Assembly: GCA_943354475.1 (NCBI GenBank)
Contig: CALRBT010000001.1
Coordinates: forward strand, 101,424 to 165,423
Direction of reading: 5' to 3'
DNA: 64,000 bases
Origin: Parcubacteria group bacterium
GTDB taxonomy: Bacteria; Patescibacteriota; Minisyncoccia; Phycocordibacterales; CALRBT01
The notes beneath the pieces were generated by a model. It was not told the DNA's origin. It did no database searches and saw only the letters and a program-made list of their open reading frames with translations. The translations under genes and the position numbers were made by a program. Below are positions 7,642 to 56,590 of this stretch, in pieces (the stretch's first letter is position 1; every line of letters starts with the position of its first letter).

Positions 7642-7703
7642 TTCCCATCCACGGATGCGAAAGACTTGTCTTGAAAATTCTCCAAGATAGATCTTTAATA
7701 TCC

Positions 7704-8648
7704 ATGGCCAATAGGCACCTTTCCAGATCAATAGTAATGCAAACGCTCTTTGAGTGGGACTTTGCAAATGTACTCGAAAAGAAACAAGACGAGCACATCG
7801 ATGAATCCCTGCTACGAAACGCCGAAGAATTCGCTCCGGGCGTTTCTGACGTTCCGTTTATGAAAATGCTGGTCAAAGGGATTCTGGAAAAACGGCAAAC
7901 CCTCGATGATATTATTGTTAAGGCTGCACCGGACTGGCCAATTGACCGCATCTCAGTTATCGATCGAAACATCCTCCGTATCGGACTCTTTGAATTAATT
8001 TTTGCCGACAAGAAAGAAGTGCCCGCTAAAGTTGCCATCAACGAAGCAATTGAACTTGCTAAATCATTTGGTGGAGAGAATAGCGGTAAGTTCGTCAACG
8101 GTGTCCTTGGTGCGGTGTACAAAGAAATGGGGGAGCCGGGTAAAGAAGAAGTTTCAAAGAATAAAAAGAAGAAGAATGGCAAACTAGCCGAAGTTCCTTA
8201 TGAGAAAATGCCCATCCAACGACTAGGTGGTGCTGTAGTCTACGCTAGGGAGGGAGATCAGGTCTATCTCGCACTCGTTCATGACATTTTTGGTCACTGG
8301 ACCCTCTCAAAAGGGAAAATTGGTGATAACCCAGAGATCGCAAACGAAACAGCCAGCGAAGGGACGATTCGAGAAATCAAAGAGGAGATTGGACTCGATA
8401 TTGTCATCAAGGAAGAGCTCTACCTTAATGAATACATTGCCAATGACCCAGAGAAGGGTAAGATTCGCAAACAGGTTCAATACTTTCTGGCTGAATCAAA
8501 GTTCGATGAGGTGAAACTGGAGAAGAGCGGTGGACTCGATGATGCGAGATGGTTCAAGCTCGCTGATATTCTCACCCTTAATTTTTATGACGATGTGCTT
8601 CCTATTGTTACCAAAGCTATTAACATCCTTTTAGTAAAACCAAGTTAG
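7704..8648 (+). CDS. nusB: NusB-family antitermination domain fused to a C-terminal Nudix hydrolase domain
   Basis: The N-terminal half matches NusB (RSIVMQTLFEWDF...AINEAIELAKSFGGENSGKFVNGVL). After a K-rich linker, the C-terminal half has a Nudix box (E-x7-REIKEEIGL). The track start at 7671 is TTG; the ATG is at 7704. Confidence 0.75.
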   Translation: MANRHLSRSIVMQTLFEWDFANVLEKKQDEHIDESLLRNAEEFAPGVSDVPFMKMLVKGILEKRQTLDDIIVKAAPDWPIDRISVIDRNILRIGLFELIFADKKEVPAKVAINEAIELAKSFGGENSGKFVNGVLGAVYKEMGEPGKEEVSKNKKKKNGKLAEVPYEKMPIQRLGGAVVYAREGDQVYLALVHDIFGHWTLSKGKIGDNPEIANETASEGTIREIKEEIGLDIVIKEELYLNEYIANDPEKGKIRKQVQYFLAESKFDEVKLEKSGGLDDARWFKLADILTLNFYDDVLPIVTKAINILLVKPS

Positions 8649-9638: not shown

Positions 9639-10043
9639 ATGATTCACATTAAATACAAACTCGATAAGTCTATTAATCACGGTATAGGTCTTTTCGCAGG
9701 TGAGGACATTCCAAAAGGAGTAGTTGTATATACTGCGAGTCCTTTACTTGACGTGAACTTAACACGAGAAGAGTTCAATTCCTTGAATGAAAAAGAAAAA
9801 GATGAGGTTCGCTGGTGGGGATTTTTTGATGAACAAAGTCAAAAGTGGCATGTTGATTTTGATGTTTCCCGTTTTATTAATCACAGAGCTGACTCAACGG
9901 TAACCCAAGACTCTAATCATACAGAGGCATATCTTGTTACTACACGTGATATTAAAACTGGAGAAGAACTTACCCAAAATTATCTTGAATTTGAAACTGA
10001 AGCAGATTTAATGAAGCGTGGAATAATGAATGTTTTGGGTTAG
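9639..10043 (+). CDS. Small SET-domain protein (putative lysine methyltransferase)
   Basis: HGIGLFAGEDIPKG, RFINHRAD and GEELTQNY correspond to SET motifs (GxG..., RFINHSC, ELxxDY). It ends 9 bp before the smc-like gene. Confidence 0.55.
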   Translation: MIHIKYKLDKSINHGIGLFAGEDIPKGVVVYTASPLLDVNLTREEFNSLNEKEKDEVRWWGFFDEQSQKWHVDFDVSRFINHRADSTVTQDSNHTEAYLVTTRDIKTGEELTQNYLEFETEADLMKRGIMNVLG

Positions 10044-10052
10044 AATGTAGAT

Positions 10053-12344
10053 ATGTATCTCAAGAGTCTTGAAATTTCCGGATTTAAATCCTTTGCTAAA
10101 AAATCAACCCTTGAATTTAACGCGCAAGTGACGGCTATTGTTGGACCCAACGGCTCGGGGAAATCAAACGTGGCGGAAGCATTCCGCTTTGTACTCGGTG
10201 AACAGTCACTAAAATCAATGCGTGGTAAACGCGGAGAGGATTTGATTTTCAATGGTTCTAATAACCAAACGAGGCTTAATCGTGCTGGCGTTAAGGTAAC
10301 CTTTGATAATACCAAGCGCGTTTTTCCCATTGAGTATGACGAGGTAGTTATCGAGCGCGTGGTTCATCGCGATTCACTCAACGAGTATCTTATCAATGGC
10401 TCCAAGGTTAGACTCAAAGACATTATCGAACTCCTCGCGCAGGCCCATATTGGAGCGTCAGGACATCATATTATTTCCCAAGGTGAGGCCGATAGGATTC
10501 TTAACGCGTCAAATAAAGAGCGTAAGGCGATGATTGAAGATGCGCTAGGGCTCAAGATTTATCAATACAAACGCGAAGAGAGTACACGTAAGCTCGAGAA
10601 GACTGAGGAGAATATTGCACAGGTGCAGTCTCTCCGCAAAGAAATCGCGCCACACCTAAAATTTCTCAAGCGTCAGGTTGAAAAAGTGGAGAAAGCCTTT
10701 GCGATGCGAGATGAACTTGTGAAGCTATATCAAGAATACTTCAAGCGAGAAGAATTGTATTTATCGAGAGAACACGAAAAATTAAACAGAGAACAAGAGG
10801 CACCGCAAACCGAACTTCATCAAATTGAGAACAAACTCACTCACTTAAAGCAGGAAATCGAGTCAGAATCTAAAGAAAATGATCGACCGCAAGAAATCGT
10901 AATACTGGAAGAAGCACTTAATCTGATTCGGACTAAGAAAGATGAGTTGGCACGGAATCTCGGGCGACTTGAAGGAGAAATAAGTAGTGAAGAACGCCAG
11001 AGAGATCGTGAGGAGCGAATTGCCAAGATTGAGACAGAGCGACTCATCAAAGTTGGTGAAGTCCGCAAGCTTTTAGATATCCTTAAATCCTCATTTAATG
11101 AAGCAGAAATGGAGGGTGGTTTGGATCGTCTGCGAATGATTATTTCCTCTATGAGCGCGGCGGTAGGGGATTTTGTCCGCACTCACATTGATCAAGTACA
11201 AGAGGGGAGCCATTCATTTGATAGGAGTGAACTCGATCGATTGATTTCCAGAAAATCAGAACTAGAGCTCGAGCTTGAAGTAGTTCGTTTGTCTGAAAAA
11301 GAAGCACAAACCAATTATCAAAAACTCAGAGCTCAGCTTGAAGAAAAGAAAGATTCACTACGGTCAGCAGAGAGAGAAATCTTTGAGCTCGTGGGTAAAC
11401 AAAGTGAGTTGCGTAGAATCCTTGCAGATCTCCGTAACCGTCAGGAACGTCTCCATCTTGAAAAGGAATCATTCGACCGTGAACTCAGGGAGTCTGTGGC
11501 GATAGCTGGGCACGAAGCTATTAGTTTCAACGGAATGGAGTTTGCCAGCCCATCAGGAGAAGCACTCTCTGATGACGAACTCGCCATCACTCCACGTACC
11601 GAGCAAGAAGGACGTTTCAAAACAATTGAGAAGATGAAAATTAGACTTGAAGATGCAGGAGCTTCTGGTGGTGAAGAGACACTCAAAGAATATCAAGATA
11701 TCACCGAGCGAGATCAGTTTTTAGAAAAAGAAATTGCAGACTTAGAGCAATCAGCAGTCTCACTAAAATCACTCATTAAAGATTTGACCTCACAACTTGA
11801 ACGAGATTTCAAAGAGGGGATGGATAAAATCAACACACAGTTCCATGAATTCTTTGCGCTGATGTTTGGTGGCGGACGCGCGGGACTAACACTTCTCCAA
11901 GAGAAGAAGCGAAAACGCGGCAGCACAGAGGATTTGGTACTAACCCAAGATCCAGAAGCCGACTTTGAAGAACCACAAGAGGAACTCGAATCAGGAATTG
12001 AGATTGATATTGCACTTCCACACAAGAAAACCAAGGGACTTGAGATGCTCTCTGGAGGGGAGCGAGCACTTACCTCAATTGCACTTCTCTTTGCAATTTC
12101 TCAAGTTAATCCACCACCGTTTATCATCCTCGATGAGACCGACGCAGCACTCGATGAAGCTAACTCGAAGAAATACGGTACTATGATTGAGAATCTCTCC
12201 AGGTACTCTCAGCTCATTGTAATCACTCACAATCGTGAGACAATGAGCACTGCAAGTATTATCTACGGCGTGACGATGGGAGGGGATGGAATTTCCAAAC
12301 TTCTCTCGATTCAATTTGAGGAAGCGGTAACCGTAGCAAAGTAG
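10053..12344 (+). CDS. smc: SMC-family chromosome-segregation ATPase, short form of 763 aa
   Basis: N-terminal Walker A (GPNGSGKSN), long coiled coil, C-terminal ABC signature LSGGERALTSIAL and Walker B ILDETDAALD. Confidence 0.8.
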   Translation: MYLKSLEISGFKSFAKKSTLEFNAQVTAIVGPNGSGKSNVAEAFRFVLGEQSLKSMRGKRGEDLIFNGSNNQTRLNRAGVKVTFDNTKRVFPIEYDEVVIERVVHRDSLNEYLINGSKVRLKDIIELLAQAHIGASGHHIISQGEADRILNASNKERKAMIEDALGLKIYQYKREESTRKLEKTEENIAQVQSLRKEIAPHLKFLKRQVEKVEKAFAMRDELVKLYQEYFKREELYLSREHEKLNREQEAPQTELHQIENKLTHLKQEIESESKENDRPQEIVILEEALNLIRTKKDELARNLGRLEGEISSEERQRDREERIAKIETERLIKVGEVRKLLDILKSSFNEAEMEGGLDRLRMIISSMSAAVGDFVRTHIDQVQEGSHSFDRSELDRLISRKSELELELEVVRLSEKEAQTNYQKLRAQLEEKKDSLRSAEREIFELVGKQSELRRILADLRNRQERLHLEKESFDRELRESVAIAGHEAISFNGMEFASPSGEALSDDELAITPRTEQEGRFKTIEKMKIRLEDAGASGGEETLKEYQDITERDQFLEKEIADLEQSAVSLKSLIKDLTSQLERDFKEGMDKINTQFHEFFALMFGGGRAGLTLLQEKKRKRGSTEDLVLTQDPEADFEEPQEELESGIEIDIALPHKKTKGLEMLSGGERALTSIALLFAISQVNPPPFIILDETDAALDEANSKKYGTMIENLSRYSQLIVITHNRETMSTASIIYGVTMGGDGISKLLSIQFEEAVTVAK

Positions 12345-12361: not shown

Positions 12362-13360
12362 ATGAAAAAAGCATTTATCACCGGTATTACCGGACAAGAC
12401 GGATCCTATTTGGCAGAGCTCCTTCTCTCGAAAGGATACGAAGTTCATGGCCTCATCCATAATCCATCAGAAACAAAAAATGTTGACTCGATTAAGGATA
12501 AGCTGACACTTCATCCGGGAGACATAACTGATGGAGAGTTACTATCAAAAATCATAATTGAAGGACAATTTGATGAAGTCTACAACCTTGCCGGAATGAC
12601 CAATGTACCCGATTCTTTCGCAGACCCAATCCTTGCTACAAAGATGACAGCACTACCCCCACTTTTTATTCTGGACGCAATTGTTAAGGGCAGTAAGCAC
12701 ACAAAACTTTTCCAAGCATCATCTTCTGAGATGTTTGGTAATGGTACCGAAAGTCCCCAACGAGAAACCTCAGGATTTCATCCGACAAATCCTTACGGTA
12801 TCGCTAAACTCTTTGCTCACCATATCTGTGAGGTATATCGTGGAAAATCCGTATTCGCAGCTTCTGGGATTCTCTATAACCACGAGTCGCCTCGTCGAGG
12901 AGAGAAGTTTGTAACAACAAAAATCGTTCGGACACTGGCAGAAATAAAAATGGGAAAAGCAGAAGTCCTTGAATTGGGAGATATCGATGCGATGCGAGAT
13001 TGGGGATTTGCCGGAGATTATGTCTTGGCCATGTGGGAGATGTTACAAGTAGAAAAGGCAGAAAGCTATATTATCGCATCAGGAGCGACACATTCGGCCC
13101 GAGATTTTGTGGATGCGTCAGCCAAGAGTTTGGGTATCGAATTAACCTGGAGCGGAAAAGGGGTAGATCAAAGAGGTGTGGATCAAAATGGAGTAGTTAG
13201 GGTCAAGGTTAATCCAGAATTTTTCAGACCATCAGAGCTTCATATCCGTCAGGGAGATATTACAAAGATTACAAATGAATTGGGATGGAAATCAAAGGTG
13301 CTCTTTGAGGAATTGGTCAAAATGATGACTGATGCAGAAATGTGTAAACTCCAGGGATAA
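12362..13360 (+). CDS. gmd: GDP-mannose 4,6-dehydratase
   Basis: ITGITGQDGSYLAELL, YGIAK (YxxxK) and ILYNHESPRRGEKFVT. Confidence 0.8.
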   Translation: MKKAFITGITGQDGSYLAELLLSKGYEVHGLIHNPSETKNVDSIKDKLTLHPGDITDGELLSKIIIEGQFDEVYNLAGMTNVPDSFADPILATKMTALPPLFILDAIVKGSKHTKLFQASSSEMFGNGTESPQRETSGFHPTNPYGIAKLFAHHICEVYRGKSVFAASGILYNHESPRRGEKFVTTKIVRTLAEIKMGKAEVLELGDIDAMRDWGFAGDYVLAMWEMLQVEKAESYIIASGATHSARDFVDASAKSLGIELTWSGKGVDQRGVDQNGVVRVKVNPEFFRPSELHIRQGDITKITNELGWKSKVLFEELVKMMTDAEMCKLQG

Positions 13361-14111: not shown

Positions 14112-15122
14112 TTACCGAGTCAGTATTTTTTGGTCAGCCTCGATCATCATCGCAATCATTTCTTTAAATGAGACTTGTGGAACCCAACCGAGCACTTCTT
14201 TCGCCTTACTTGCATCACCTCGTAAGTAATCTACTTCATTTGGACGATAAAAATATTTATTGATGCGAATGATAATCTTACCATCTTTAGTAATTCCTAT
14301 TTCATCCAACCCTTCTCCTTGCCAGGTTAAACCCAGGTCTAAAATTTCAGAAGCCATTTCCACCATCTCTCTAATCGTTCGCGACACTCCGGTAGCAATA
14401 ACAAAATCATCAGCCACCTCTTGTTGGAGCATTCGCCACATAGCATTAACATAATCTCCGGCAAAACCCCAGTCACGACGTGCTTCGAGATTCCCCAATT
14501 CAAAGCCTTCGATCATTCCTAATTTTATTTTAACTAAATTTTGTGTCACTTTGCGAGTTACAAAGTTTTCCCCTCGGCGAGGCGACTCGTGATTGAAGAG
14601 AATACCAGAGCAAATAAAGTGTCCTTTCTCTCGCAGTGCTTTGACAATATCGGTATGTGTCTTATGTTTTGACTCTCCATACGGAGAAACAGGTTCAAAG
14701 GGACTTGCTTCATTTTGTGGAGGCTGCGTTTTACCATACATCTCTGAAGTTGAAGCTTGGTAGAATTTAACCTTTGGGTTTTGTTTAAATGCCTCATCAG
14801 CGAGCATTTTAACTCCTTCAAAATTTATGGCCCAAGTTTCATCGGGGCAGTCAAACGAGATACGAACGTCAGATTGCCCTGCAAGGTTATATATTTCATC
14901 CGGCTTTGCAATTTCGAGAGCTCTAATAAGGGTTGCCTTGTCCCTCATATTTCCATAAATCAATTTGACCCTATCATTCTTGATAAGGTGGTTAATCCGA
15001 ATGAATGGATCAGTACTGGTTCGTCTGACCAACCCGTAGATTTCGTAATCTTTAGTTTCTAAAAGGTCTGCCAAATAGGATCCGTCTTGTCCGGTAATAC
15101 CCGTGATGAGTGCTCGCTTCAT
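14112..15122 (-). CDS. gmd: GDP-mannose 4,6-dehydratase, second diverged paralog
   Basis: ITGITGQDGSYLADLL, YGESK, ILFNHESPRRGENFVTRK and MLQQEVADDFVIATG. Confidence 0.8.
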   Translation of the reverse strand: MKRALITGITGQDGSYLADLLETKDYEIYGLVRRTSTDPFIRINHLIKNDRVKLIYGNMRDKATLIRALEIAKPDEIYNLAGQSDVRISFDCPDETWAINFEGVKMLADEAFKQNPKVKFYQASTSEMYGKTQPPQNEASPFEPVSPYGESKHKTHTDIVKALREKGHFICSGILFNHESPRRGENFVTRKVTQNLVKIKLGMIEGFELGNLEARRDWGFAGDYVNAMWRMLQQEVADDFVIATGVSRTIREMVEMASEILDLGLTWQGEGLDEIGITKDGKIIIRINKYFYRPNEVDYLRGDASKAKEVLGWVPQVSFKEMIAMMIEADQKILTR

Positions 15123-15278
15123 ATAGTGCTATAATAAGTTCAACATATTGTATGTTTCTCTGGATTAATTTGCAAACATGTAGACAAAGAATGTAAACTG
15201 CACAGTGAATTAGTATCTTCCGTCACGATTGATTATATATTTAAAAAACTTAAAACCAATTTTATGAAAGGTGAAGGG

Positions 15279-16265
15279 ATGAAGGACACGTCGAATCGTA
15301 AAAAGCAAGAGACCGTCAAGGAGAAAGACAAACCTCTCACTGAGAACCCACACGATATTCCAGAGCGACAAATTCCTCAAGAAACGCTTGAACAAGAAGC
15401 TGAGCGATTACTAGAAAATTTATTGAGTGATAAAGACAATGCTTTTCTTACTGAGCATGAAGAAAATAAAAAACGTTTGGATGAATTCTCCTCGGCGGTT
15501 CAAGCGCTTGCGTTTGCACTCAAAAAGATAGATGAACGTCATGAGCGAACCTCTCGCCTCACACTCGCTTCCCCTGAGGTGTTAGGAGTAGAGATAGTAA
15601 ATGTGAATCCTGTGGGTATAAGGAAGAACGTTGAAGAGATCTTAAAACATGCAATGGAAATTGGTAGGGGAGGTGACGCAATCGTTGTTGTTGATAAAAG
15701 TGAAGTTAGGAGTTTACCTCCAGAAATTTGTTACAAGTTTGCGATTACTGAGACCACCCCTCGTGGAAGAAACTCCACTTTCTCTGAAATTGCTCTCCAA
15801 GAAGCTTTTTACAAAGCTAATATGGAGGTTCCAGAAAGCAAAATTGGTGTACCTATTCCATTTTACGCACATGAGGTTGGAATACATAAAGTGATCGCAA
15901 TGGAGAAGCTCAATGCTAAAAGCGTAGATGATATTTTGCACAGTAAAGGGACGCTACCCCCATGGTTTGATGTCGACACGTTTTGTGATGAATTACACAC
16001 AGTGCTTGATCACTTTCATGCGAAGGGTCTATATCACCGGGACATGCATGAAGGTAATATTATGATTTCTCAACAAAAAGAAATTGGGGATGGAGATAAA
16101 ATCGGTTTTATTATTGATTTTGGCCTCTCTGTTCAAGACGATACAGGGATAGAACCATATAAAAAACAGGTTGCTGGGACAACCTTTACATATTCAGACG
16201 ATTATGGTATCATAAAAAGAGTACAAACTGCTCTTAAAACGTATCAAAAAACACATTTAGCATGA
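15279..16265 (+). CDS. Minimal protein-kinase-like-fold protein (RIO/Bud32/Kdo-kinase-like) with an acidic coiled N-terminal region
   Basis: Catalytic loop YHRDMHEGNIMI and IIDFGLS (DFG), with no activation-segment/APE region after the DFG. The start was moved to the ATG at 15279, preceded by AAAGGTGAAGGG. Confidence 0.5.
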   Translation: MKDTSNRKKQETVKEKDKPLTENPHDIPERQIPQETLEQEAERLLENLLSDKDNAFLTEHEENKKRLDEFSSAVQALAFALKKIDERHERTSRLTLASPEVLGVEIVNVNPVGIRKNVEEILKHAMEIGRGGDAIVVVDKSEVRSLPPEICYKFAITETTPRGRNSTFSEIALQEAFYKANMEVPESKIGVPIPFYAHEVGIHKVIAMEKLNAKSVDDILHSKGTLPPWFDVDTFCDELHTVLDHFHAKGLYHRDMHEGNIMISQQKEIGDGDKIGFIIDFGLSVQDDTGIEPYKKQVAGTTFTYSDDYGIIKRVQTALKTYQKTHLA

Positions 16266-18745: not shown

Positions 18746-19150
18746 ATGTTAAAATTACGATTACAGCGAGTAGGCCGAAAGCACCACTTCTCTTTCCGAG
18801 TGGTTTTGACCGATTCTAAAAATTCAGCGGGAAGCGGGAAGTATCTCGAAGTTCTTGGTTCATACGACCCAAAGAGTAAGGCAAAGGCGTTCAAGAAAGA
18901 CGAAATCCTCGCTCGAATCGGCCAAGGGGCGCAACTTTCTGAAACACTCCACAACCTCCTTGTTAGTGAGAAAATTATTGATGGTAAAAAAGTAAACGCA
19001 CTTCCAAAGAAAACAGCACCCAAAAAAGAAGTAGAGAAAGAAGCACCAGCTCCTGTGGCAGAGAAAGTAGAAGAGAAAGTTGAAACTCCTACTGAAGTGG
19101 TAGATGAAGTAACTCCAGAAGTCGCTTCAACAGAAGAGGTAGTTGCCTAA
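18746..19150 (+). CDS. rpsP: 30S ribosomal protein S16 with a K/E/P-rich C-terminal extension
   Basis: MLKLRLQRVGRKHHFSFRVVLTDSKNSAGSGKYLEVLGSYDP. Confidence 0.9.
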   Translation: MLKLRLQRVGRKHHFSFRVVLTDSKNSAGSGKYLEVLGSYDPKSKAKAFKKDEILARIGQGAQLSETLHNLLVSEKIIDGKKVNALPKKTAPKKEVEKEAPAPVAEKVEEKVETPTEVVDEVTPEVASTEEVVA

Positions 19151-28184: not shown

Positions 28185-28218
28185 TCCAGTATCTAGTAAT
28201 AGAATCTAAAAATATTTC

Positions 28219-28827
28219 GTGAAAAAAAAGCTAATCATCCCCATACTTCTTATTGTGGTTGGGAGTGTCGGTTACTTTGCCTTCTATAAACTATTGCAAA
28301 AACCTGAATCAATAGTTCAAACCACTCTACCAGAAGGGTACCAAACTTATACAAACGCTGACCTTGGTGTAACAGTTAGTGTTCCAAAAGACTGGGTAAT
28401 TACCGCTATCGACGAAACTGGTAATGGTTCAACAACAAAGGTAACTATATCCTCGCCTGACCTGGAAACCAAACATACCACTGTAGGAGGTGGGGAAATC
28501 ATACGTAAAGGAGGAGAGTTTGGGTTTTCATCTGAACCCGTTACAGATGAGGAGCAAGAACGAATTACACTTCCTCAAGCGAAAACTCCATCAGGAGATA
28601 ACTTTGTTTCAAGAGAAGCGATTACAGTTGATGGTCAAACTGTCTTCCTTGATACATACCTAGGGGACTTTGAAGACCTGTCAGCGAAAGACCAAAGAAA
28701 ACTGAGTTCGGCAGCATTCTTCTATAATGGAAAATTATACAGTTTTTCATTTACCTATGGTCCAAGTTTAATTAACCACGACGAAATACTTAAAAACTTT
28801 ATCGAAGGATTCAAGATAAGTCGTTAG
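28219..28827 (+). CDS. Hypothetical membrane-anchored (N-terminal TM) protein
   Basis: N-terminal hydrophobic helix. No recognisable catalytic motif. Confidence 0.5.
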   Translation: MKKKLIIPILLIVVGSVGYFAFYKLLQKPESIVQTTLPEGYQTYTNADLGVTVSVPKDWVITAIDETGNGSTTKVTISSPDLETKHTTVGGGEIIRKGGEFGFSSEPVTDEEQERITLPQAKTPSGDNFVSREAITVDGQTVFLDTYLGDFEDLSAKDQRKLSSAAFFYNGKLYSFSFTYGPSLINHDEILKNFIEGFKISR

Positions 28828-28839
28828 AGTAGTCGATTT

Positions 28840-28883
28840 AACCAACAAAAGCCTCGGCAGAAATGCCGAGGCTTTTGTTGGTT
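28840..28883 (+). terminator. Perfect 20-bp stem hairpin AACCAACAAAAGCCTCGGCA-GAAA-TGCCGAGGCTTTTGTTGGTT
   Basis: Read directly from the sequence. Confidence 0.65.
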
Positions 28884-29358
28884 AAAATCAGTTGCTAAAC
28901 TACATTCAGTATTACCGCAACAGTCTTCGTGTAAATCAAGAAAGCCCCGGCAAGAATGCGCGAGGCTTTCTGTCGGGGCGACGGTGGTTATGGTCGACTT
29001 TACGTCTTGGCTATTACCACCGTTGTTGTGTATACGGGGGTCAGCCCTTCATTACTTGCTATCGGTGCAAGAAGTACTATTGTACTAGTGGTAACAATCC
29101 TGTAGCCATCGTGCTTTGCCAGTTCGAGTTCGATGGACCGCTCGTGGTGCACTAACCCTTCTGTTGACACTATTAAAATCTTGTCAAACATCGCAGTAAA
29201 CCTTCTTTCTTTTGTGGTGGCTTGATAATAGTGTACAGTATAAATTAGAATATGTCAAACAGATTTTGCTGTGTGCTATAATGATCTTAATTCATTAACA
29301 CTGTCTCTAGTTTTAAACCCCACCCCCTAAAACCTATCACCTATAACCTTGCTCTCCT

Positions 29359-31182
29359 ATGTCCAGCCCCGTTGAACAAATTAAAGAACGTCTCAATATC
29401 ATCGATGTTATCGGCTCGTATATTAAGGTTGAAAAATCCGGAATCAACTTCAAGGCTAAATGCCCGTTCCACAATGAGAAGACAGCCTCGTTCTACATCT
29501 CACCGGAGCGCCGAAGCTTCTATTGTTTTGGCTGTAACGCCAAGGGCGACATCTTCAGCTTTGTTGAACAGTTTGAGGGGCTAGATTTTATGGGGGCGCT
29601 CAAAGTGCTCGCTGTACGCGCTGGAGTTGAGCTGACCGGTTTTCGTCGTGAACGCTCGGATGGGAAGGATAAAGAAAGTAAAGAAAAACTTTTTGAACTA
29701 CTTGACGCTGCAACACATTATTTCCAGCAGAATCTTGTATCTAATCCAGCCGCACTTGCGTACCTAAAGAAGAGGGGGATTACCATCGAAACAATGAAAT
29801 CATTCCAGCTTGGTTTTGCGCCGGAGGCCTGGCGAAATCTCCATGAGCATTTGGCCAAAGCGGGCTTTAGTGACGTGGACATGGAAAAGGTCGGACTTAT
29901 TAAAAAGGCAGCTGCCAAAAACGCATCAGGTATCTCAATCTATGATCGTTTTCGTAGTCGCATCATTTTTCCACTTGCTGATCAATCAGGTCGCATAGCA
30001 GGATTTTCAGGAAGAATTTTTAGTGCCGAAGGAAAAGTAGCTGATGATGTTGCCAAGTACTTAAATTCTCCAGAGACTGAAATTTTCCTAAAATCCAAAC
30101 TCCTCTTTGGTTTCGATAAAGCTAAGCTTGAGATTCGTCGTAAGGATTTTACTATTGTGGTTGAGGGACAAATTGATCTGGTTATGTCGCACCAAGTCGG
30201 GTTTGCCAACACCGTGGCACTCTCAGGAACCGCACTTTCTCTCGATCACCTCCAGATGCTCAAACGGTTCTCAGACAGATTAATTTTTGCTTTTGACGCG
30301 GATAGTGCCGGGTTCCGCGCCTCTACTCGCTCCGCACGTGAGGCGCTCGCCCTCGGTATGGAAGTGCGGGTGGCACTCTTGCCTGCAGGTAAGGATCCGG
30401 CTGATATGATTCTTGAAGACCTCTCAAATGAGAAAGAGGGGAAAGAAAAGTTATGGCCTGAGGTTCTCTCTAAGTCAGTCCACATTATTGATTTCTACTT
30501 AAACCATCTCTTTAACGAAAAACTGGATGATGCACAGCTCCGCAAACGAATCGAGAAAGAGGTACTACCTTACATTCTTTCAATAGGAAGCAAGATAGAA
30601 CAAGCTCATTTTATCAAACGTATTGCCAAAGCACTCGGTGTTGATGAAGAACCTGTTTGGCAGGAATTAGCCAAACTTGAAGCGAGCGAGAAGCAGGCGG
30701 TTCGAAGTGTAGAACAATCGCCCGTACCCACAGCACTTACACTAACCAACGACAAACGCTCTGAGTCGCGCGACCGAATTCTCCGTAAACTCATCGCGTT
30801 GTACTTTCTCGAACAAGAGAATCAACATGCTGGAAAAGAGCACGCCTTTGAAATCGAGGTATTTGAAAAACGCATTAGCGACATTCGTGGAGTAGATTTT
30901 CTTAAAGCTGTGGTTGAAAACTATGAATCAGAACGCTCGGAGCTGGTGCTCGAAGCGGAGGTTACTTACGATGATCCCACCGCCCTTGTAAAAAATCTTG
31001 ATGAATTGCTCTTAAACTTTGAAGAAGAATTCCTCAAAGAGACACTCACTCGGACGGTTATTGCCTTGCGTCAGGCTGAGGCCAAGGATCATCGTGATGA
31101 AGTGCTCGAACTTCTCAAAGAGTCCCAGGAAATCTCAAAAAAGCTAAACACGCTGGCTCGGCTGAAACTCTCGGGAAACTAG
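29359..31182 (+). CDS. dnaG: DNA primase
   Basis: Zinc ribbon CPFHNEKTASF...YCFGC and TOPRIM motifs (VVEGQIDL...FDADSAG). Confidence 0.9.
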   Translation: MSSPVEQIKERLNIIDVIGSYIKVEKSGINFKAKCPFHNEKTASFYISPERRSFYCFGCNAKGDIFSFVEQFEGLDFMGALKVLAVRAGVELTGFRRERSDGKDKESKEKLFELLDAATHYFQQNLVSNPAALAYLKKRGITIETMKSFQLGFAPEAWRNLHEHLAKAGFSDVDMEKVGLIKKAAAKNASGISIYDRFRSRIIFPLADQSGRIAGFSGRIFSAEGKVADDVAKYLNSPETEIFLKSKLLFGFDKAKLEIRRKDFTIVVEGQIDLVMSHQVGFANTVALSGTALSLDHLQMLKRFSDRLIFAFDADSAGFRASTRSAREALALGMEVRVALLPAGKDPADMILEDLSNEKEGKEKLWPEVLSKSVHIIDFYLNHLFNEKLDDAQLRKRIEKEVLPYILSIGSKIEQAHFIKRIAKALGVDEEPVWQELAKLEASEKQAVRSVEQSPVPTALTLTNDKRSESRDRILRKLIALYFLEQENQHAGKEHAFEIEVFEKRISDIRGVDFLKAVVENYESERSELVLEAEVTYDDPTALVKNLDELLLNFEEEFLKETLTRTVIALRQAEAKDHRDEVLELLKESQEISKKLNTLARLKLSGN

Positions 31183-31381
31183 TACCGTTACAAGTTACTA
31201 TGTACTGCAGACCATTGCGAAACACACCCCTTTTATATGACAGAAATTAACTTGTAACGGTACTAGCTCTCACTGCGAAAGTGTGGTACAATCCTCACAC
31301 ATCTGAGGCTACCGTGGGAGTCTCAATTTTCAGTATTTATCTCTCGTTTATCCTCAATTTATATAATCCTTTTTACTATAT

Positions 31382-32689
31382 ATGCCAAAAAAGAAGAAAG
31401 TTTCAAAAAAGAAAGTGGTCAAAGCAAAGCCTGCCAAAAAGGTAGTAAAGACCAAGGTTAAGGCTGTAAAAGCTAAGGTTAAGAATTTTGCCAAACTAAA
31501 ACTTGAACGTCAGAAGAAAGTAAAAGCAAAGACTGTAAAAAAGGTTGGGGGCAAGGCGCTTGCCAAGAAGGCGGTAAAGAAGAAGCCTGTCAAAGTAGAG
31601 AAAACAAAAAGTTCAAAGAAAGAAAACGAATTTAATAACAAAGTAGAAAGGCTTGTCCTCAAAGGTAAGGAGCGAGGCTTTGTCACCTACGATCAGATTC
31701 TCAAGGAATTCCCAGCTATTGAGGATGACATTCTTGGACTTGAATTTTTGTACGAAAAGTTTTCAGCATCTGGAATTGACGTCCTCGAAGGTGGAGGAAT
31801 GCTCGGTGCCAATGATGATGAATTGCCTAAGAAATACGGTTACGGAAAGAGTGATTCTTCATACGACTCGATTCAAATGTACCTAAAAGAAATTGGTCAG
31901 TACCCACTGCTTAAGGCGTTTGAAGAGAAAGACTTTGCTAAACGAATTATGGAAGGGGACATTGAAGCCAAGAATCTTCTGGCACGCGCTAACCTGCGTT
32001 TGGTGGTATCAATTGCCAAGAAATACGTTGGTCGCTCACCTGACCTCACGCTTCTTGATCTCATTCAAGAAGGAAACCTCGGACTCTTCAAGGCGGTAGA
32101 TAAGTTTGATTGGACTAAAGGATATAAATTCTCAACGTATGCCACGTGGTGGATTCGCCAAGCCATTACCCGTGCGCTTGCCGATCAGAGCCGAACCATC
32201 CGCATTCCGGTGCACATGGTGGAGACAATTGCCAAGTACAAGCAAGTAGTAAGGCGATTGTCACAGGATCTAGGACGTGACCCATTGCCCGATGAGATTG
32301 CAACCGAAATGGGTGTTGAAGTAGACAAGATTTACACTATTGAACAGATCAATCAAGACACAGTCTCGCTTGAATCTCCGGTAGGGGATGATGGAGATGA
32401 CAGGTCAACACTCGGTGACTTTATTGCAGATGATAAGATTTTAGCTCCCGATCACGAGTCTTCTCGCAGGATCCTTTCAGATCAGGTTAAAGATATTTTA
32501 AATGACCTCTCGCTTAAAGAGCGCAAGATTCTGGAGATGCGACATGGATTAGTTGATGGTATTACGCACACACTTGAAGAGGTTGGAAAAGAATTTGGTG
32601 TCACTCGTGAACGCATCAGACAGATTGAAGCAAAAGCTCACCAAAAGATACGAGAACATGAGAAGGTGAATCGACTCCGAAACTACTAA
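31382..32689 (+). CDS. rpoD: RNA polymerase sigma-70 factor with a histone-H1-like lysine-rich N-terminal extension of about 80 aa
   Basis: Region 1.2 ([17 protein letters not shown]), region 2 ([14 protein letters not shown]), region 3 and region 4 are all present. The N-terminus is [31 protein letters not shown]... Confidence 0.9.
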
Positions 32690-32728
32690 GGGTTTCCAAA
32701 CTTGGAAAATCCGGATGTTAAAGCATCA

Positions 32729-32756
32729 GACCCCCACAAGCAAGCTTGCGGGGGTC
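32729..32756 (+). terminator. Hairpin GACCCCCACAAGC/GCTTGCGGGGGTC after rpoD
   Basis: Read directly. One mismatch in a 13-bp stem. Confidence 0.55.
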
Positions 32757-32825
32757 TCGGCTTAATAGCGAACACCGCAGGGGAGGGGTTTATTCCTCCA
32801 CACCGCGGTGTGTTTCGTCGCGCGG

Positions 32826-33146
32826 TTACTTTCCGTGCGACAAGTGGTAGAGCATCTTGATGATGCCACAAGTGGTCCGTAGAAGGAAGAAGGCGATTAG
32901 GAAATGGGACACAAGTCCCATGTTTCCAAGCGTCACCTCCACCTGAGCCCCCGTATCTGGGGGCAACAAGTCGCATCCCCACTCGATCGATCTTGTCATC
33001 CCCCGTTTGATTTCTTTCAGTGTTTGGGGGTGGTAGGCGAGGAGGTAGGCGAACCCCCCCAGAACGACTGCGGTTGTCCACGCTTGGAAAAAGCGCGCCC
33101 TGATCCACATCCATCCAAAATAACCAAACTTTCTCGCGAATTCCAT
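32826..33146 (-). CDS. Small two-TM membrane protein in a GC-rich islet
   Basis: The start was chosen at the ATG preceded by AGGAGAA (MEFARKFGYFGWMWI...). Local GC is visibly higher than in the flanks. Confidence 0.4.
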   Translation of the reverse strand: MEFARKFGYFGWMWIRARFFQAWTTAVVLGGFAYLLAYHPQTLKEIKRGMTRSIEWGCDLLPPDTGAQVEVTLGNMGLVSHFLIAFFLLRTTCGIIKMLYHLSHGK

Positions 33147-33317
33147 CGGAGTTCTCCTGAATTGGTTTGACCACGTCCCATGACGCAATCTATTACTGAA
33201 TTAAGTATACCATACTTAATAAAATTTGTCAAGTATCACAAACACCTTCAAATTTTGTTCACAATGGTCAAAAATCTAGCCTAGAGATTAGGAAATAAAG
33301 GAGAGTGAGTATATAAT

Positions 33318-33467
33318 ATGCTCATGGCAAAACGACTCGCAGTAAATACAAAGAATAAAACATCTCGTTCTAAGAAAACAAAGAAGCGACTTGCGACTAA
33401 GAAAGCAATGCTTTTGGCGAAACCAAAGAACAAGAGCACCAACCCTAACCGAAGACGAAGTGCATAA
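33318..33467 (+). CDS. Unannotated 49-aa very basic peptide (MLMAKRLAVNTKNKTSRSKKTKKRLATKKAMLLAKPKNKSTNPNRRRSA)
   Basis: AAAGGAGAG lies upstream, though the spacing is long at about 12 nt. Two hairpins follow at 33583-33652. Confidence 0.3.
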   Translation: MLMAKRLAVNTKNKTSRSKKTKKRLATKKAMLLAKPKNKSTNPNRRRSA

Positions 33468-33582
33468 GTTTGAGGTGATATAGGGTTTGGTTTGATAAAA
33501 GAAAAGTGCCCATCACTAAGATGGTATTTTTCGTTGATGGATACGGATCGAAAGATTATGGTTTACGATTTTTTACATACTT

Positions 33583-33652
33583 CAACCGCAAGGTTTAGCC
33601 TTGCGGTTGTTTAGTTAAAGTAGAAACGCTCGGCCTTGCGGCCGAGCGTTTT
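33583..33652. terminator. Two tandem hairpins (CAACCGCAAGG..CCTTGCGGTTG and AAACGCTCGGCC..GGCCGAGCGTTT plus a T run) forming a bidirectional terminator
   Basis: Read directly from the sequence. Confidence 0.6.
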
Positions 33653-33662
33653 AATTTAGGCG

Positions 33663-34238
33663 TTAGCCTCTCTGATACTCCTCCCATACTGGGGTGAAAT
33701 TTTCACGGAAGACACCCATCTGAATCGTGTCGTGATAACCACCATCTTTCCACATGTGCCGTAGTCGGCGCCCTTCTTCAAAGAACCCACATTTTTTGTA
33801 AGAGGCGATAGCACGTGGATTGAAGTCGTGAACATCAAGTTCGATCTTATGGAGATTCATTTGCATCAGGGCATATTCCAGGAGCAATAATAACGCTTCA
33901 CTCCCGTGACCTTTACCCCAATATTCTTTCTCGCCAATTGCAATACCAAAGGTGGCAACTCTACTAACCCAATCAATTCGATGAAGTCCAATATTACCAA
34001 TTGGAATTCCTTCCTTGGTTACGATAATGAATACTTGGTTACTGAGCTTATCCTTTGCTAAACGATCAATCCAGTCAACCTCGTTTTGCTCAAGTTGCGG
34101 AAAACCAATTCCGAGGTACTTAGTCACCTCAGTATCGTTGAACCATTTGAATAGATGAGGAACATCCGATTTCATTGGAATTCCCAAGTCAGTATTCTTT
34201 TTGCCAATACGAAAGATTGGGCGGGTACTATTTTCCAC
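33663..34238 (-). CDS. GNAT-family N-acetyltransferase (RimJ/RimL-like)
   Basis: GNAT acetyl-CoA motif region (HRIDWVSRVATFGIAIGEKEYWGKGHGSEAL). Confidence 0.75.
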   Translation of the reverse strand: MENSTRPIFRIGKKNTDLGIPMKSDVPHLFKWFNDTEVTKYLGIGFPQLEQNEVDWIDRLAKDKLSNQVFIIVTKEGIPIGNIGLHRIDWVSRVATFGIAIGEKEYWGKGHGSEALLLLLEYALMQMNLHKIELDVHDFNPRAIASYKKCGFFEEGRRLRHMWKDGGYHDTIQMGVFRENFTPVWEEYQRG

Positions 34239-56074: not shown

Positions 56075-56590
56075 ATGAAAACAGAAACAATCAAGAAAGG
56101 AGGAAAGTATGAGCCTGGAAATTTTACATTGAAGGCAAAACGATCGAGTGCAGGATTAGGGCTCTATACGATGGACCCAATTAAAAAAGGGGATTGTGTC
56201 ATCGAGTACGTAGGACCAGTAGTACCTAAAGAAGAATGGGACACTATTAATAGCCTTTACCTTTTTGAGGTAACCAAGAAGAAAACTATCAACGGTGCTG
56301 TTCGGAGTAACACCGCTCGTTATATCAATCACTCTTGCAAGCCAAATTGTGAAATTGATATTCGTAAGGAGAGGGTATTTATTATGGCGAAACGTAATAT
56401 CAAAGCTGGAGAAGAACTAAGTTATGATTATGACCGAGAATATTTTGATGAATATATCAAACCAAAGGGTTGTAAGTGTGGGGCAGAAAAGCATCTCTAT
56501 AACACTCCTAAAAAAGTCACTCCAGCAAAAAAGAAAGTAACAAAAACAACAAAGGGGAAAAAGCCCAAAACCAAAAAGGGTGCAAGATAA
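56075..56590 (+). CDS. SET-domain lysine methyltransferase with a histone-H1-like KKxK-rich C-terminal tail
   Basis: GLGLYTMDPIKKGDCVIEYVG, NHSCKPNC and EELSYDY SET motifs, a post-SET CKCGAEKH, then TPKKVTPAKKKVTKTTKGKKPKTKKGAR. Confidence 0.75.
   Translation: MKTETIKKGGKYEPGNFTLKAKRSSAGLGLYTMDPIKKGDCVIEYVGPVVPKEEWDTINSLYLFEVTKKKTINGAVRSNTARYINHSCKPNCEIDIRKERVFIMAKRNIKAGEELSYDYDREYFDEYIKPKGCKCGAEKHLYNTPKKVTPAKKKVTKTTKGKKPKTKKGAR

What the first reader, a model, noticed from the sequence alone, without database searches (positions are those of the whole stretch)
31382..31660. Housekeeping sigma factor with a histone-H1-like N-terminal domain replacing region 1.1
RpoD regions 1.2 to 4 are canonical. 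The first ~80 residues, however, are a lysine/alanine/valine-rich repeat ([25 protein letters not shown]...) typical of H1/Hc1-like DNA-binding tails.

This would tether the sigma factor, or the holoenzyme, to DNA non-specifically. It is also a plausible substrate for the SET enzymes in this window.
Basis: seen in the sequence. Interest (0 to 1): 0.5.

Follow-up and report, generated by a model that had tools for sequence, protein, structure and literature searches.

The report
Lysine-rich tail on primary sigma factor
The main transcription-initiation factor of this tiny uncultured (Parcubacteria-type) bacterium carries a floppy, highly positively charged 78-residue tail in front of an otherwise complete sigma factor. 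The tail is real and lineage-wide, probably acts as a non-specific DNA tether, and is added to region 1.1 rather than replacing it.

Summary
ORF 31382-32689 (+) encodes a 435-aa primary sigma factor. Its first 78 residues are 44% lysine with net charge +33, and are predicted to be disordered.

The title claim is wrong. Region 1.1 is present directly after the tail, at residues 79-137. It passes Pfam's cut-off, aligns with B. subtilis SigA from residue 8, and has AlphaFold pLDDT of about 90.

The tail is not an artefact:
- All 120 closest homologues have one (30-101 aa, +12 to +50).
- So do 15 genome representatives from several Parcubacteria-group candidate phyla.
- A 91%-identical relative, found on 11 contigs, differs only by in-frame indels.

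Sequence drifts fast (dN 0.31, against 0.02 in the core), yet charge density is kept across 31-58% GC, with Arg replacing Lys as GC rises. The tail is labile across the radiation: a sister clade has tail-less and even polyanionic versions.

"H1/Hc1-like" holds for composition only. There is no significant Pfam or PDB match and no S/TPKK motif.

Two SET-domain genes do exist in the window, but they lie 21 and 23 kb away and are unlinked to rpoD. Calling the tail their substrate is speculation by analogy.

Closest precedents are the lysine repeats of Streptomyces HrdB, which sit between regions 1.1 and 1.2, and the H1-like tail of DdbA.

Verdict: new variant of a known kind, moderate interest.

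The parts
31382..31615 (+). Polycationic, predicted-disordered N-terminal tail of the sigma factor (residues 1-78: 44% Lys, net +33). It contains a weakly predicted helix at residues 31-47 ([16 protein letters not shown]) and short 15- and 21-nt tandem duplications.
   Evidence: No Pfam or PDB match.
31616..31792 (+). Sigma region 1.1 (residues 79-137): folded, mildly acidic (net -4), highly conserved in the lineage.
   Evidence: Pfam PF03979 at 40.7 bits against a 22.5 cut-off. Alignment with B. subtilis SigA. pLDDT about 90. Invariant columns G95, G99, T102, D104 and others.
31793..31855 (+). Disordered linker between region 1.1 and region 1.2 (residues 138-158).
   Evidence: pLDDT below 50 for residues 138-158. 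Net charge -1.
31856..32689 (+). Sigma regions 1.2, 2, 3 and 4 plus the stop codon. There is no non-conserved insert between regions 1.2 and 2.
   Evidence: Pfam. phmmer against PDB sigma factors, E down to 4e-103.
31284..31292 (+). Candidate extended -10 element TGgTACAAT, about 90 nt upstream of the start codon, with no recognisable -35. This is read from the sequence and is not validated.
   Evidence: Read. The two-hexamer promoter scan found nothing. Exact TGNTATAAT is not significantly enriched in the window.
31179..31266 (.). Perfect 19-nt inverted repeat with a 50-nt loop. It overlaps the dnaG stop codon, lies between dnaG and rpoD, and is unique in the window. Role unknown (terminator, attenuator or operator).
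29359..31182 (+). dnaG primase, the conserved upstream neighbour of rpoD. The order rpoB-rpoC-dnaG-rpoD is kept in relatives.

Best explanation
The gene encodes a complete SigA-type primary sigma factor (regions 1.1, 1.2, 2, 3, 4). A 78-residue intrinsically disordered polycation, with about 0.4 net charges per residue, has been added to its N-terminus.

Shown here:
- The tail is translated and conserved as a feature throughout this Parcubacteria-group lineage.
- It evolves fast in sequence and length.
- It is held under selection for positive charge density.
- It turns an otherwise acidic sigma (about -8) into a net basic protein (about +25).

Inferred:
- The tail acts as a sequence-independent electrostatic tether to nucleic acid, most likely duplex DNA.
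- This would raise the affinity of free sigma and of the holoenzyme for DNA, helping promoter search and stabilising promoter complexes.
- It hangs on the N-terminus of region 1.1, which in characterised holoenzymes occupies the downstream DNA channel and is expelled on open-complex formation (established knowledge).
- It is therefore positioned to contact DNA at or near the channel entrance, and may help exchange the acidic DNA mimic for real DNA.
- This would suit small genomes with few transcription factors.
For: - Architecture.
- Present in 120/120 nearest homologues: 30-101 aa, 27-53% Lys, about 1% Asp+Glu, +12 to +50. The rest of the protein is -5 to -13, and the total is positive in 120/120.
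- Present in 15 genome representatives labelled Paceibacterota, Kaiserbacteria, Moraniibacteriota, Falkowbacteria and others. About 60 Firmicutes and other SigA proteins have 5-25 residue neutral leaders.
- Independent assemblies: a 91%-identical relative on 11 contigs shows only in-frame indels. dN is 0.311 in the tail, 0.079 in region 1.1 and 0.019 in the core. Tail dN/dS is about 0.15.
- Charge rather than sequence is conserved. Net charge per residue stays at 0.23-0.53 over 31-58% GC, while Arg replaces Lys as GC rises (rho 0.72, p 0.003).
- Selectivity: only sigma and one SET protein in the window carry such a stretch.
- Precedents for Lys-rich tails conferring DNA binding. Lysine repeats are over-represented in Streptomyces DNA-binding proteins, including HrdB, and they stabilise TopA-DNA complexes (PMC5714199). 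The H1-like N-terminal domain of the RNAP-binding protein DdbA binds and condenses DNA (PMC3643593).
Against: - There is no direct evidence of DNA binding. Nothing here distinguishes DNA from RNA, polyphosphate or acidic protein partners.
- The tail is dispensable in evolution. 29/120 members of a sister clade lack it or carry mixed or polyanionic extensions, and other Patescibacteria lack it (L047, L083).
- It has no profile-level similarity to known DNA-binding tails.
- A weak negative correlation between tail charge and the charge of the rest of sigma (rho -0.21, p 0.024) also fits simple charge compensation.
- The structural argument about the position of region 1.1 is taken from model organisms, not from this RNA polymerase.
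Confidence: 0.5

Rival explanations
1. Intramolecular regulator. The basic tail folds back on the acidic region 1.1, the linker or other acidic sigma surfaces. It would tune autoinhibition of free sigma or the ease with which region 1.1 leaves the DNA channel, rather than binding DNA itself.
For: The tail is directly fused to region 1.1. The rest of sigma is acidic, -5 to -13. There is a weak negative correlation between tail charge and the charge of the remainder (rho -0.21, p 0.024). Sister-clade proteins swap the tail for polyanionic extensions, suggesting a tunable electrostatic module.
Against: The tail charge (+12 to +50) far exceeds the -1 to -7 of region 1.1, and there is no correlation with region 1.1 charge (rho 0.09). 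The large excess charge would still be free to bind polyanions.
Confidence: 0.2
2. The tail binds another polyanion or partner, such as nascent RNA, rRNA or ribosomes (coupling or localisation), polyphosphate, or anionic membrane lipids.
For: The composition resembles basic extensions of ribosomal proteins. The only, non-significant, PDB match of the tail is ribosomal protein eL31 (E 0.19). Nothing in the data discriminates between polyanions.
Against: Sigma acts on DNA. The literature precedents for Lys repeats in RNAP-associated and nucleoid proteins are DNA-binding.
Confidence: 0.15
3. A largely neutral low-complexity expansion, produced by replication slippage in A-rich codons, that is tolerated at a permissive N-terminus and has no specific function.
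For: Short 15- and 21-nt tandem duplications occur inside the tail. Length is very variable, sequence turnover is fast, and the tail has been lost repeatedly.
Against: The tail is universal in 120/120 close homologues and almost free of acidic residues. Charge density is maintained across a 27-point GC range with Lys-to-Arg substitution. dN/dS is about 0.15. Only 2 proteins in the window have such stretches, so this is not a proteome-wide drift.
Confidence: 0.08
4. One reading: an H1-like domain has replaced region 1.1.
For: In a sister clade the precomputed Pfam lists lack region 1.1. There it is detectable mostly at sub-threshold scores: 8 of 10 tested proteins matched, at 10.6-23.7 bits, one just above the 22.5-bit cut-off.
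Against: In this protein region 1.1 is present, above threshold, colinear with SigA and confidently folded.
Confidence: 0.02
5. Assembly, frameshift or start-codon artefact.
For: None was found. No Shine-Dalgarno motif is evident upstream of the ATG.
Against: The M-[PA]-K-K start and the tail are conserved in more than 200 homologues from independent samples. Only in-frame indels are seen. The next in-frame Met lies after region 1.1.
Confidence: 0.01

Closest known systems
Lysine repeats of Streptomyces HrdB (and B. pertussis RpoD), noted by Strzalka et al. 2017 (PMC5714199)
   Same: A primary sigma factor carrying a long Lys-rich, low-complexity, presumably disordered segment. It is proposed to contact DNA and is grouped with the Lys repeats of TopA, HupS and Ku.
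   Different: In HrdB (PDB 8k60_F) the basic K/R/A/T repeats lie at about residues 75-160, between region 1.1 and region 1.2. Here the tail precedes region 1.1. HrdB repeats are Ala/Thr-rich and regular (AKKxx); here they are Val-rich and irregular. Those authors linked Lys repeats to GC-rich genomes. This genome is 42% GC and relatives go down to 31%. The two are probably independent acquisitions.
Streptomyces DdbA (H1-like N-terminal domain fused to a DksA-like RNAP-binding domain; PMC3643593)
   Same: An N-terminal Lys-rich extension of about 90 residues on a protein that works on RNA polymerase. The DdbA tail was shown to bind and condense DNA.
   Different: The carrier protein differs: a secondary-channel factor rather than sigma. 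DdbA has S/T-A/T-A-K-K pentapeptide repeats with BLAST similarity to Hc2 and HupS. The tail here has no such repeats and no significant matches.
Chlamydial Hc1/Hc2 and the eukaryotic histone H1 C-terminal domain
   Same: About 40% Lys, net charge per residue of about 0.4, and predicted disorder. One related sigma tail (P0327) gives a sub-threshold Pfam HC2 hit of 26.2 bits.
   Different: There is no family-level match for this protein. There is no globular H1/H5 or Hc1 domain and no S/TPKK motif. The tail is Val-rich rather than Ala/Pro-rich, and it is an appendage of an enzyme-associated factor rather than a stand-alone chromatin protein.
Bacillus subtilis SigA (PDB 7ckq_F), closest solved homologue aligned over its whole length (C. 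difficile SigA, 7l7b_F, scores higher but aligns only from region 1.2)
   Same: Same domain order, with a short region 1.1, no non-conserved insert, and regions 1.2 to 4. It aligns colinearly over residues 79-434.
   Different: SigA has only about 7 residues before the alignment start. This protein has 78 extra residues carrying +33 charge.

Membership tests
Group 1 (primary, RpoD/SigA-type) sigma-70 family | Regions 1.2, 2, 3 and 4 all present | tested here: met
   Pfam PF00140, PF04542, PF04539 and PF04545 at 48.7-78 bits, all above cut-off.
Group 1 (primary, RpoD/SigA-type) sigma-70 family | Region 1.1 present N-terminal to region 1.2 | tested here: met
   PF03979 at residues 85-139, 40.7 bits against a 22.5 cut-off, and 43.5 bits on the isolated segment. 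pLDDT about 90.
Group 1 (primary, RpoD/SigA-type) sigma-70 family | Colinear with characterised primary sigma factors; dnaG-rpoD gene order | tested here: met
   phmmer against PDB SigA/RpoD, E 4e-103 to 1e-80. dnaG lies immediately upstream here and in 71 related loci.
Group 1 (primary, RpoD/SigA-type) sigma-70 family | Essential housekeeping role in vivo | not testable with these tools
   Uncultured organism, and only a 64-kb window is available.
Histone H1 / chlamydial Hc1-Hc2 nucleoproteins | Profile match to the Hc1, HC2 or linker-histone families | tested here: not met
   Tail residues 1-84 give no Pfam family at E<=10 and no PDB match better than E 0.19. A relative's tail hits HC2 at only 26.2 bits against a 40-bit cut-off.
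Histone H1 / chlamydial Hc1-Hc2 nucleoproteins | Lys/Ala/Pro-rich composition with S/TPKK-type repeats | tested here: not met
   K 43% is met, but V is 17%, A 11% and P 4%. No SPKK or TPKK occurs in the sequence.
Histone H1 / chlamydial Hc1-Hc2 nucleoproteins | Binds and condenses DNA | not testable with these tools
   Needs EMSA, AFM or similar experiments.
Actinobacterial-type 'lysine repeats' in DNA-binding proteins (TopA CTD, HupS, HrdB) | Multiple short Lys-containing repeat units in a disordered segment of a DNA-transaction protein | tested here: inconclusive
   A Lys-rich disordered segment in a sigma factor is met. Repeat regularity is weak: only 2.1-2.2 copies of 15- and 21-nt units. 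The position relative to region 1.1 differs from HrdB.
Substrate of SET-domain lysine methyltransferase | Genomic or functional linkage to a SET enzyme; methyl-lysine on the tail | tested here: inconclusive
   Two SET genes are in the window. SET2 has NHSCxPN and ELxYDY motifs, and its family is widespread in Paceibacterota. The genes lie 21-23 kb from rpoD and are absent from the rpoD neighbourhood in relatives. Methylation itself is not testable here.

The most novel reading that the evidence does not exclude
In Parcubacteria-group bacteria the housekeeping sigma factor doubles as a histone-tail-like, nucleoid-associated element. Its polylysine tail would be reversibly modified by the lineage-wide SET-domain lysine methyltransferases, one of which carries its own Lys-rich tail, and/or by acetyltransferases. 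Global transcription initiation would then be tuned by a chromatin-like lysine code instead of by many transcription factors.
Probability: 0.06. Interest if true: 0.8.

Novelty: new variant of a known kind. Interest (0 to 1): 0.4.

Why it matters
Region 1.1 of primary sigma factors is an acidic DNA mimic that blocks DNA binding by free sigma and plugs the polymerase's DNA channel. A 30-140 residue polycation bolted onto it reverses the net charge of sigma across a large part of the Candidate Phyla Radiation. This is an unstudied solution to promoter engagement in organisms with very small genomes and few regulators.

It is directly testable in vitro by comparing tail-less and full-length sigma.

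It widens the known occurrence of lysine-rich appendages on sigma factors from GC-rich Actinobacteria to low-GC uncultured lineages. It shows that charge rather than sequence is what is kept.

It does not overturn anything known, and the replacement of region 1.1 that made the original claim striking is not real.

Tried and rejected
- Pfam scan of the tail alone at E<=10: nothing.
- phmmer of the tail against all PDB chains: only eL31 at E 0.19.
- Rfam on the window and on 31150-33700: only a tRNA, plus noise.
- Two-hexamer promoter scan upstream of rpoD: none.
- Exact extended -10 TGNTATAAT: 4 matches against 2.05 expected, not significant, although 3 of the 4 sit just upstream of genes.
- Exact TTGACA-N16-18-TATAAT: none.
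- Cluster look-up to name 10 divergent K-tailed sigma representatives: no names returned.
- Synteny test for SET or GNAT genes near rpoD in relatives: negative. This also removes support for the idea that the convergent GNAT gene at 33663-34238 targets the tail.
- Literature searches for lysine-rich or positively charged N-terminal extensions of primary sigma factors, and for Patescibacteria/CPR sigma: no paper describes this feature. Only the HrdB and B. pertussis mention and DdbA came up.
The taxonomic survey is therefore a sample, not a census.
- dS between the window and its closest relative is saturated. The dN/dS of about 0.15 for the tail is approximate, and no ratio could be computed for the other segments.

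Full report
**What is there.** The window (about 42% GC) is a chromosome segment of a Patescibacteria/CPR bacterium. Its genes are typical housekeeping genes: dnaE, rnhB, rnc, smc, rpoB, rpoC, dnaG, hisS, def, fmt and others. ORF 31382-32689 (+) encodes 435 residues. Pfam recognises sigma-70 regions 1.2 (162-193), 2 (200-272), 3 (281-358) and 4 (373-425), and also region 1.1 at residues 85-139 (40.7 bits, cut-off 22.5). dnaG lies directly upstream, and the order rpoB-rpoC-dnaG-rpoD is kept in relatives. This is the primary sigma factor.

**The observation.** Residues 1-78 contain 34 lysines. The 16 large genes of the window average 7.7% Lys, giving a binomial P of 7.5e-18. The tail carries +33 net charge, whereas region 1.1, the linker and regions 1.2-4 carry -4, -1 and -3. 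Only one other ORF in the window has a comparable stretch, the C-terminus of a SET-domain protein. The quoted interval (to 31660) overshoots by about 15 residues into region 1.1.

**The tail is added, not substituted.**
- The isolated segment 85-163 hits Sigma70_r1_1 with E 3.1e-11, while the isolated tail hits nothing even at E<=10.
- phmmer against the PDB aligns residues 79-434 colinearly with B. subtilis SigA residues 8-368. Residues 1-78 therefore have no counterpart.
- An AlphaFold2 model built on 87 homologues gives pLDDT 37-55 for residues 1-78. This region is disordered, with one weak helix at 31-47.
- The same model gives about 90 for residues 79-137, with helices 79-98, 103-109 and 117-130 plus two short strands. 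It gives below 50 for the linker 138-158.
- Region 1.1 also contains many invariant columns in the family alignment.
- The title claim 'replacing region 1.1' is refuted for this locus.

**Not an artefact; lineage-wide.**
- All 120 best homologues have a Lys-rich leader. Where named, they are called Paceibacterota, Pacebacteria, Parcubacteria, Taylorbacteria or Patescibacteria group.
- Measured from the start of region 1.1, the leaders are 30-101 aa (median 54.5), 27-53% Lys and about 1% Asp+Glu, with net charge +12 to +50. The rest of sigma is -5 to -13, and the whole protein is net positive in 120/120.
- A 91%-identical protein occurs on 11 contigs from several samples with the same synteny.
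- Its tail differs from the window's only by substitutions and in-frame indels. dN is 0.311 in the tail, 0.079 in region 1.1 plus linker (residues 85-160) and 0.019 in the core. Tail dN/dS is about 0.15, with dS saturated.
- Among species-representative genomes, 15 loci carry tails of 30-137 aa before region 1.1. They are labelled Paceibacterota, Kaiserbacteria, Moraniibacteriota, Falkowbacteria, Patescibacteria group, plus some MAGs auto-labelled Saccharibacteria or Gammaproteobacteria.
- About 60 Firmicutes, Actinobacteria and other SigA/RpoD genes have 5-25 residue neutral leaders. A few Clostridia have mixed K/E extensions with roughly zero net charge.
- Falkowbacteria and Moraniibacteriota are separate candidate phyla of the Parcubacteria group.

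**What is conserved is charge.** Across those 15 loci GC ranges from 31.5 to 58%. Net charge per residue stays at 0.23-0.53, while the arginine share of basic residues rises with GC (Spearman 0.72, p 0.003). Short 15- and 21-nt tandem duplications inside the tail point to growth by slippage or duplication. A sub-family motif, [LF][FY]KKLKAKNLKK, occurs in 26/120 tails. It corresponds to the weak helix 31-47 here ([12 protein letters not shown]).

**The feature is labile and recurrent.**
- Among the 150 best 50%-identity cluster representatives, 47 have a K/R-rich window before region 1.2. Of these, 24 have an N-terminal region of charge +15 or more, usually followed by a recognisable region 1.1.
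- In a sister clade around P0133, 91/120 have a tail. The other 29 include tail-less proteins of 353-361 aa and proteins with K/E/D-rich net-negative extensions of about -20.
- In that clade region 1.1 is divergent but detectable in 8 of 10 proteins tested, mostly at sub-threshold scores (10.6-23.7 bits; P0328 just above the 22.5-bit cut-off).
- One tail there (P0327) gives a sub-threshold hit to Pfam HC2, the histone H1-like nucleoprotein family (26.2 bits against 40).
- Other Patescibacteria lack the tail (L047, L083).

**Mechanism (inferred).** A disordered polycation of this charge density, fused to a DNA-transaction protein, most plausibly gives non-specific electrostatic affinity for DNA. 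Three precedents bear on this:
- Lysine repeats are over-represented in Streptomyces DNA-binding proteins, including HrdB. They stabilise TopA-DNA complexes (PMC5714199; PMC7398561).
- The H1-like N-terminal domain of the RNAP-associated DdbA binds and condenses DNA (PMC3643593).
- From established structural work on E. coli and Bacillus holoenzymes, region 1.1 sits in the downstream DNA channel and is displaced on open-complex formation.

A tail on the N-terminus of region 1.1 would therefore lie near the channel mouth. I rate the DNA-tether model at about 0.5. The alternatives are an intramolecular partner of the acidic region 1.1, binding of RNA, ribosomes or polyphosphate, and a near-neutral expansion. 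Each is listed with evidence under the rival explanations. None can be excluded computationally. A weak negative correlation between tail charge and the charge of the rest of sigma (rho -0.21, p 0.024) is compatible with charge compensation.

**The SET idea.**
- Two SET-domain ORFs exist. One is at 9639-10043 (134 aa, immediately upstream of smc) and one at 56075-56590 (171 aa).
- The second has NHSCxPN and ELxYDY motifs, a CxC post-SET element and its own Lys-rich C-tail.
- Its family has 2,742 homologues at E<=1e-10, named Paceibacterota, Parcubacteria or Patescibacteria where named, with conserved motifs. The basic C-tail occurs only in 11/120.
- Prokaryotic SET enzymes can methylate Lys-rich chromatin proteins: cpnSET methylates Hc1 and Go1-SET methylates MC1-alpha (PMC3980110).
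- Against this, the genes are 21 and 23 kb from rpoD, and neither they nor the convergent GNAT gene (33663-34238) are found near rpoD in relatives. This remains an untested analogy.

**Comparison with what is known.** The closest known case is Streptomyces HrdB. Its sequence, checked against PDB 8k60_F, has region 1.1 at the N-terminus and the K/R/A/T repeats at about residues 75-160, between regions 1.1 and 1.2. That is a different insertion point and a different repeat style. The authors of that work associated lysine repeats with GC-rich genomes, which the present low-GC lineage contradicts. No paper describing this feature in CPR sigma factors was found. The library searched is limited to open-access texts.

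**Verdict.** This is a new variant of a known kind, lysine-rich disordered appendages on primary sigma factors and RNAP-associated proteins. It is distinguished by its position in front of an intact region 1.1, its breadth across the Parcubacteria group, and clear selection on charge. Interest is moderate at 0.4.

Noticed in passing
window 33325-33468 (+): A small conserved basic ORF of 47 aa (MAKRLAVNTKNKTSRSKKTKKRLATKKAMLLAKPKNKSTNPNRRRSA). It shares 83% nucleotide identity over 90 nt with relative L001 7825-7914, where no gene was called. A TATAAT box ends about 7 nt before the ATG, suggesting a leaderless or very short-leader mRNA.
   Followed up: partly
window 31179-31197 / 31248-31266: A perfect 19-nt inverted repeat with a 50-nt loop, overlapping the dnaG stop codon. 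It is unique in the window (0 expected by chance). It could be a terminator, an attenuator or an operator between dnaG and rpoD.
   Followed up: partly
window 56075-56590 (+): A SET-domain protein with canonical NHSCxPN and ELxYDY motifs and a CxC post-SET element, plus its own Lys-rich C-terminal tail (TPKKVTPAKKKVTKTTKGKKPKTKKGAR). The family is highly conserved (63-86% identity) and widespread in Paceibacterota, but the basic tail occurs only in the nearest relatives, 11/120.
   Followed up: partly
window 9639-10043 (+): A second, more divergent SET-domain ORF of 134 aa. It ends 10 nt before the start of smc (10053-12344), suggesting co-transcription with the chromosome-condensation ATPase.
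   Followed up: no
window 28185-29358: About 1.2 kb lies between rpoC and dnaG, and it is absent in the close relative, where the gap is 190 bp. It contains ORF 28219-28827 (202 aa), which has no Pfam hit and no tblastx match in related loci. A TGCTATAAT extended -10 candidate sits at 29274-29282 upstream of dnaG.
   Followed up: partly
window 32826-33188 (-): A 120-aa membrane-like ORF downstream of rpoD with no Pfam hit. It is conserved at about 45% amino-acid identity in relatives (L001 7393-7647), where no gene was called.
   Followed up: partly
window 7671-8648 (+): A single 325-aa ORF combines a NusB domain (residues 18-151) with a NUDIX hydrolase domain (188-303), an unusual fusion for an antitermination factor.
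   Followed up: no
proteins P0324, P0325, P0331, P0333-P0335 (sister-clade sigma factors): Some Patescibacteria primary sigma factors carry a 47-63 residue K/E/D-rich, net-negative (about -17 to -21) N-terminal extension in the position where others carry the polycation. This is a natural charge swap.
   Followed up: partly
window 15264-16265 (+): An ORF with a partial eukaryote-type protein kinase domain (Pkinase, 39.8 bits). It is preceded by an exact TGCTATAAT at 15127-15135.
   Followed up: no
window 12362-13360 (+) and 14112-15122 (-): Two paralogous GDP-mannose 4,6-dehydratase-type genes, both with E about 1e-110, flank a small NUDIX ORF.
   Followed up: no
window 18746-19150 (+): The ribosomal protein S16 ORF is 134 aa, while the Pfam S16 domain covers only residues 8-65. 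It therefore carries a C-terminal extension of about 70 residues.
   Followed up: no
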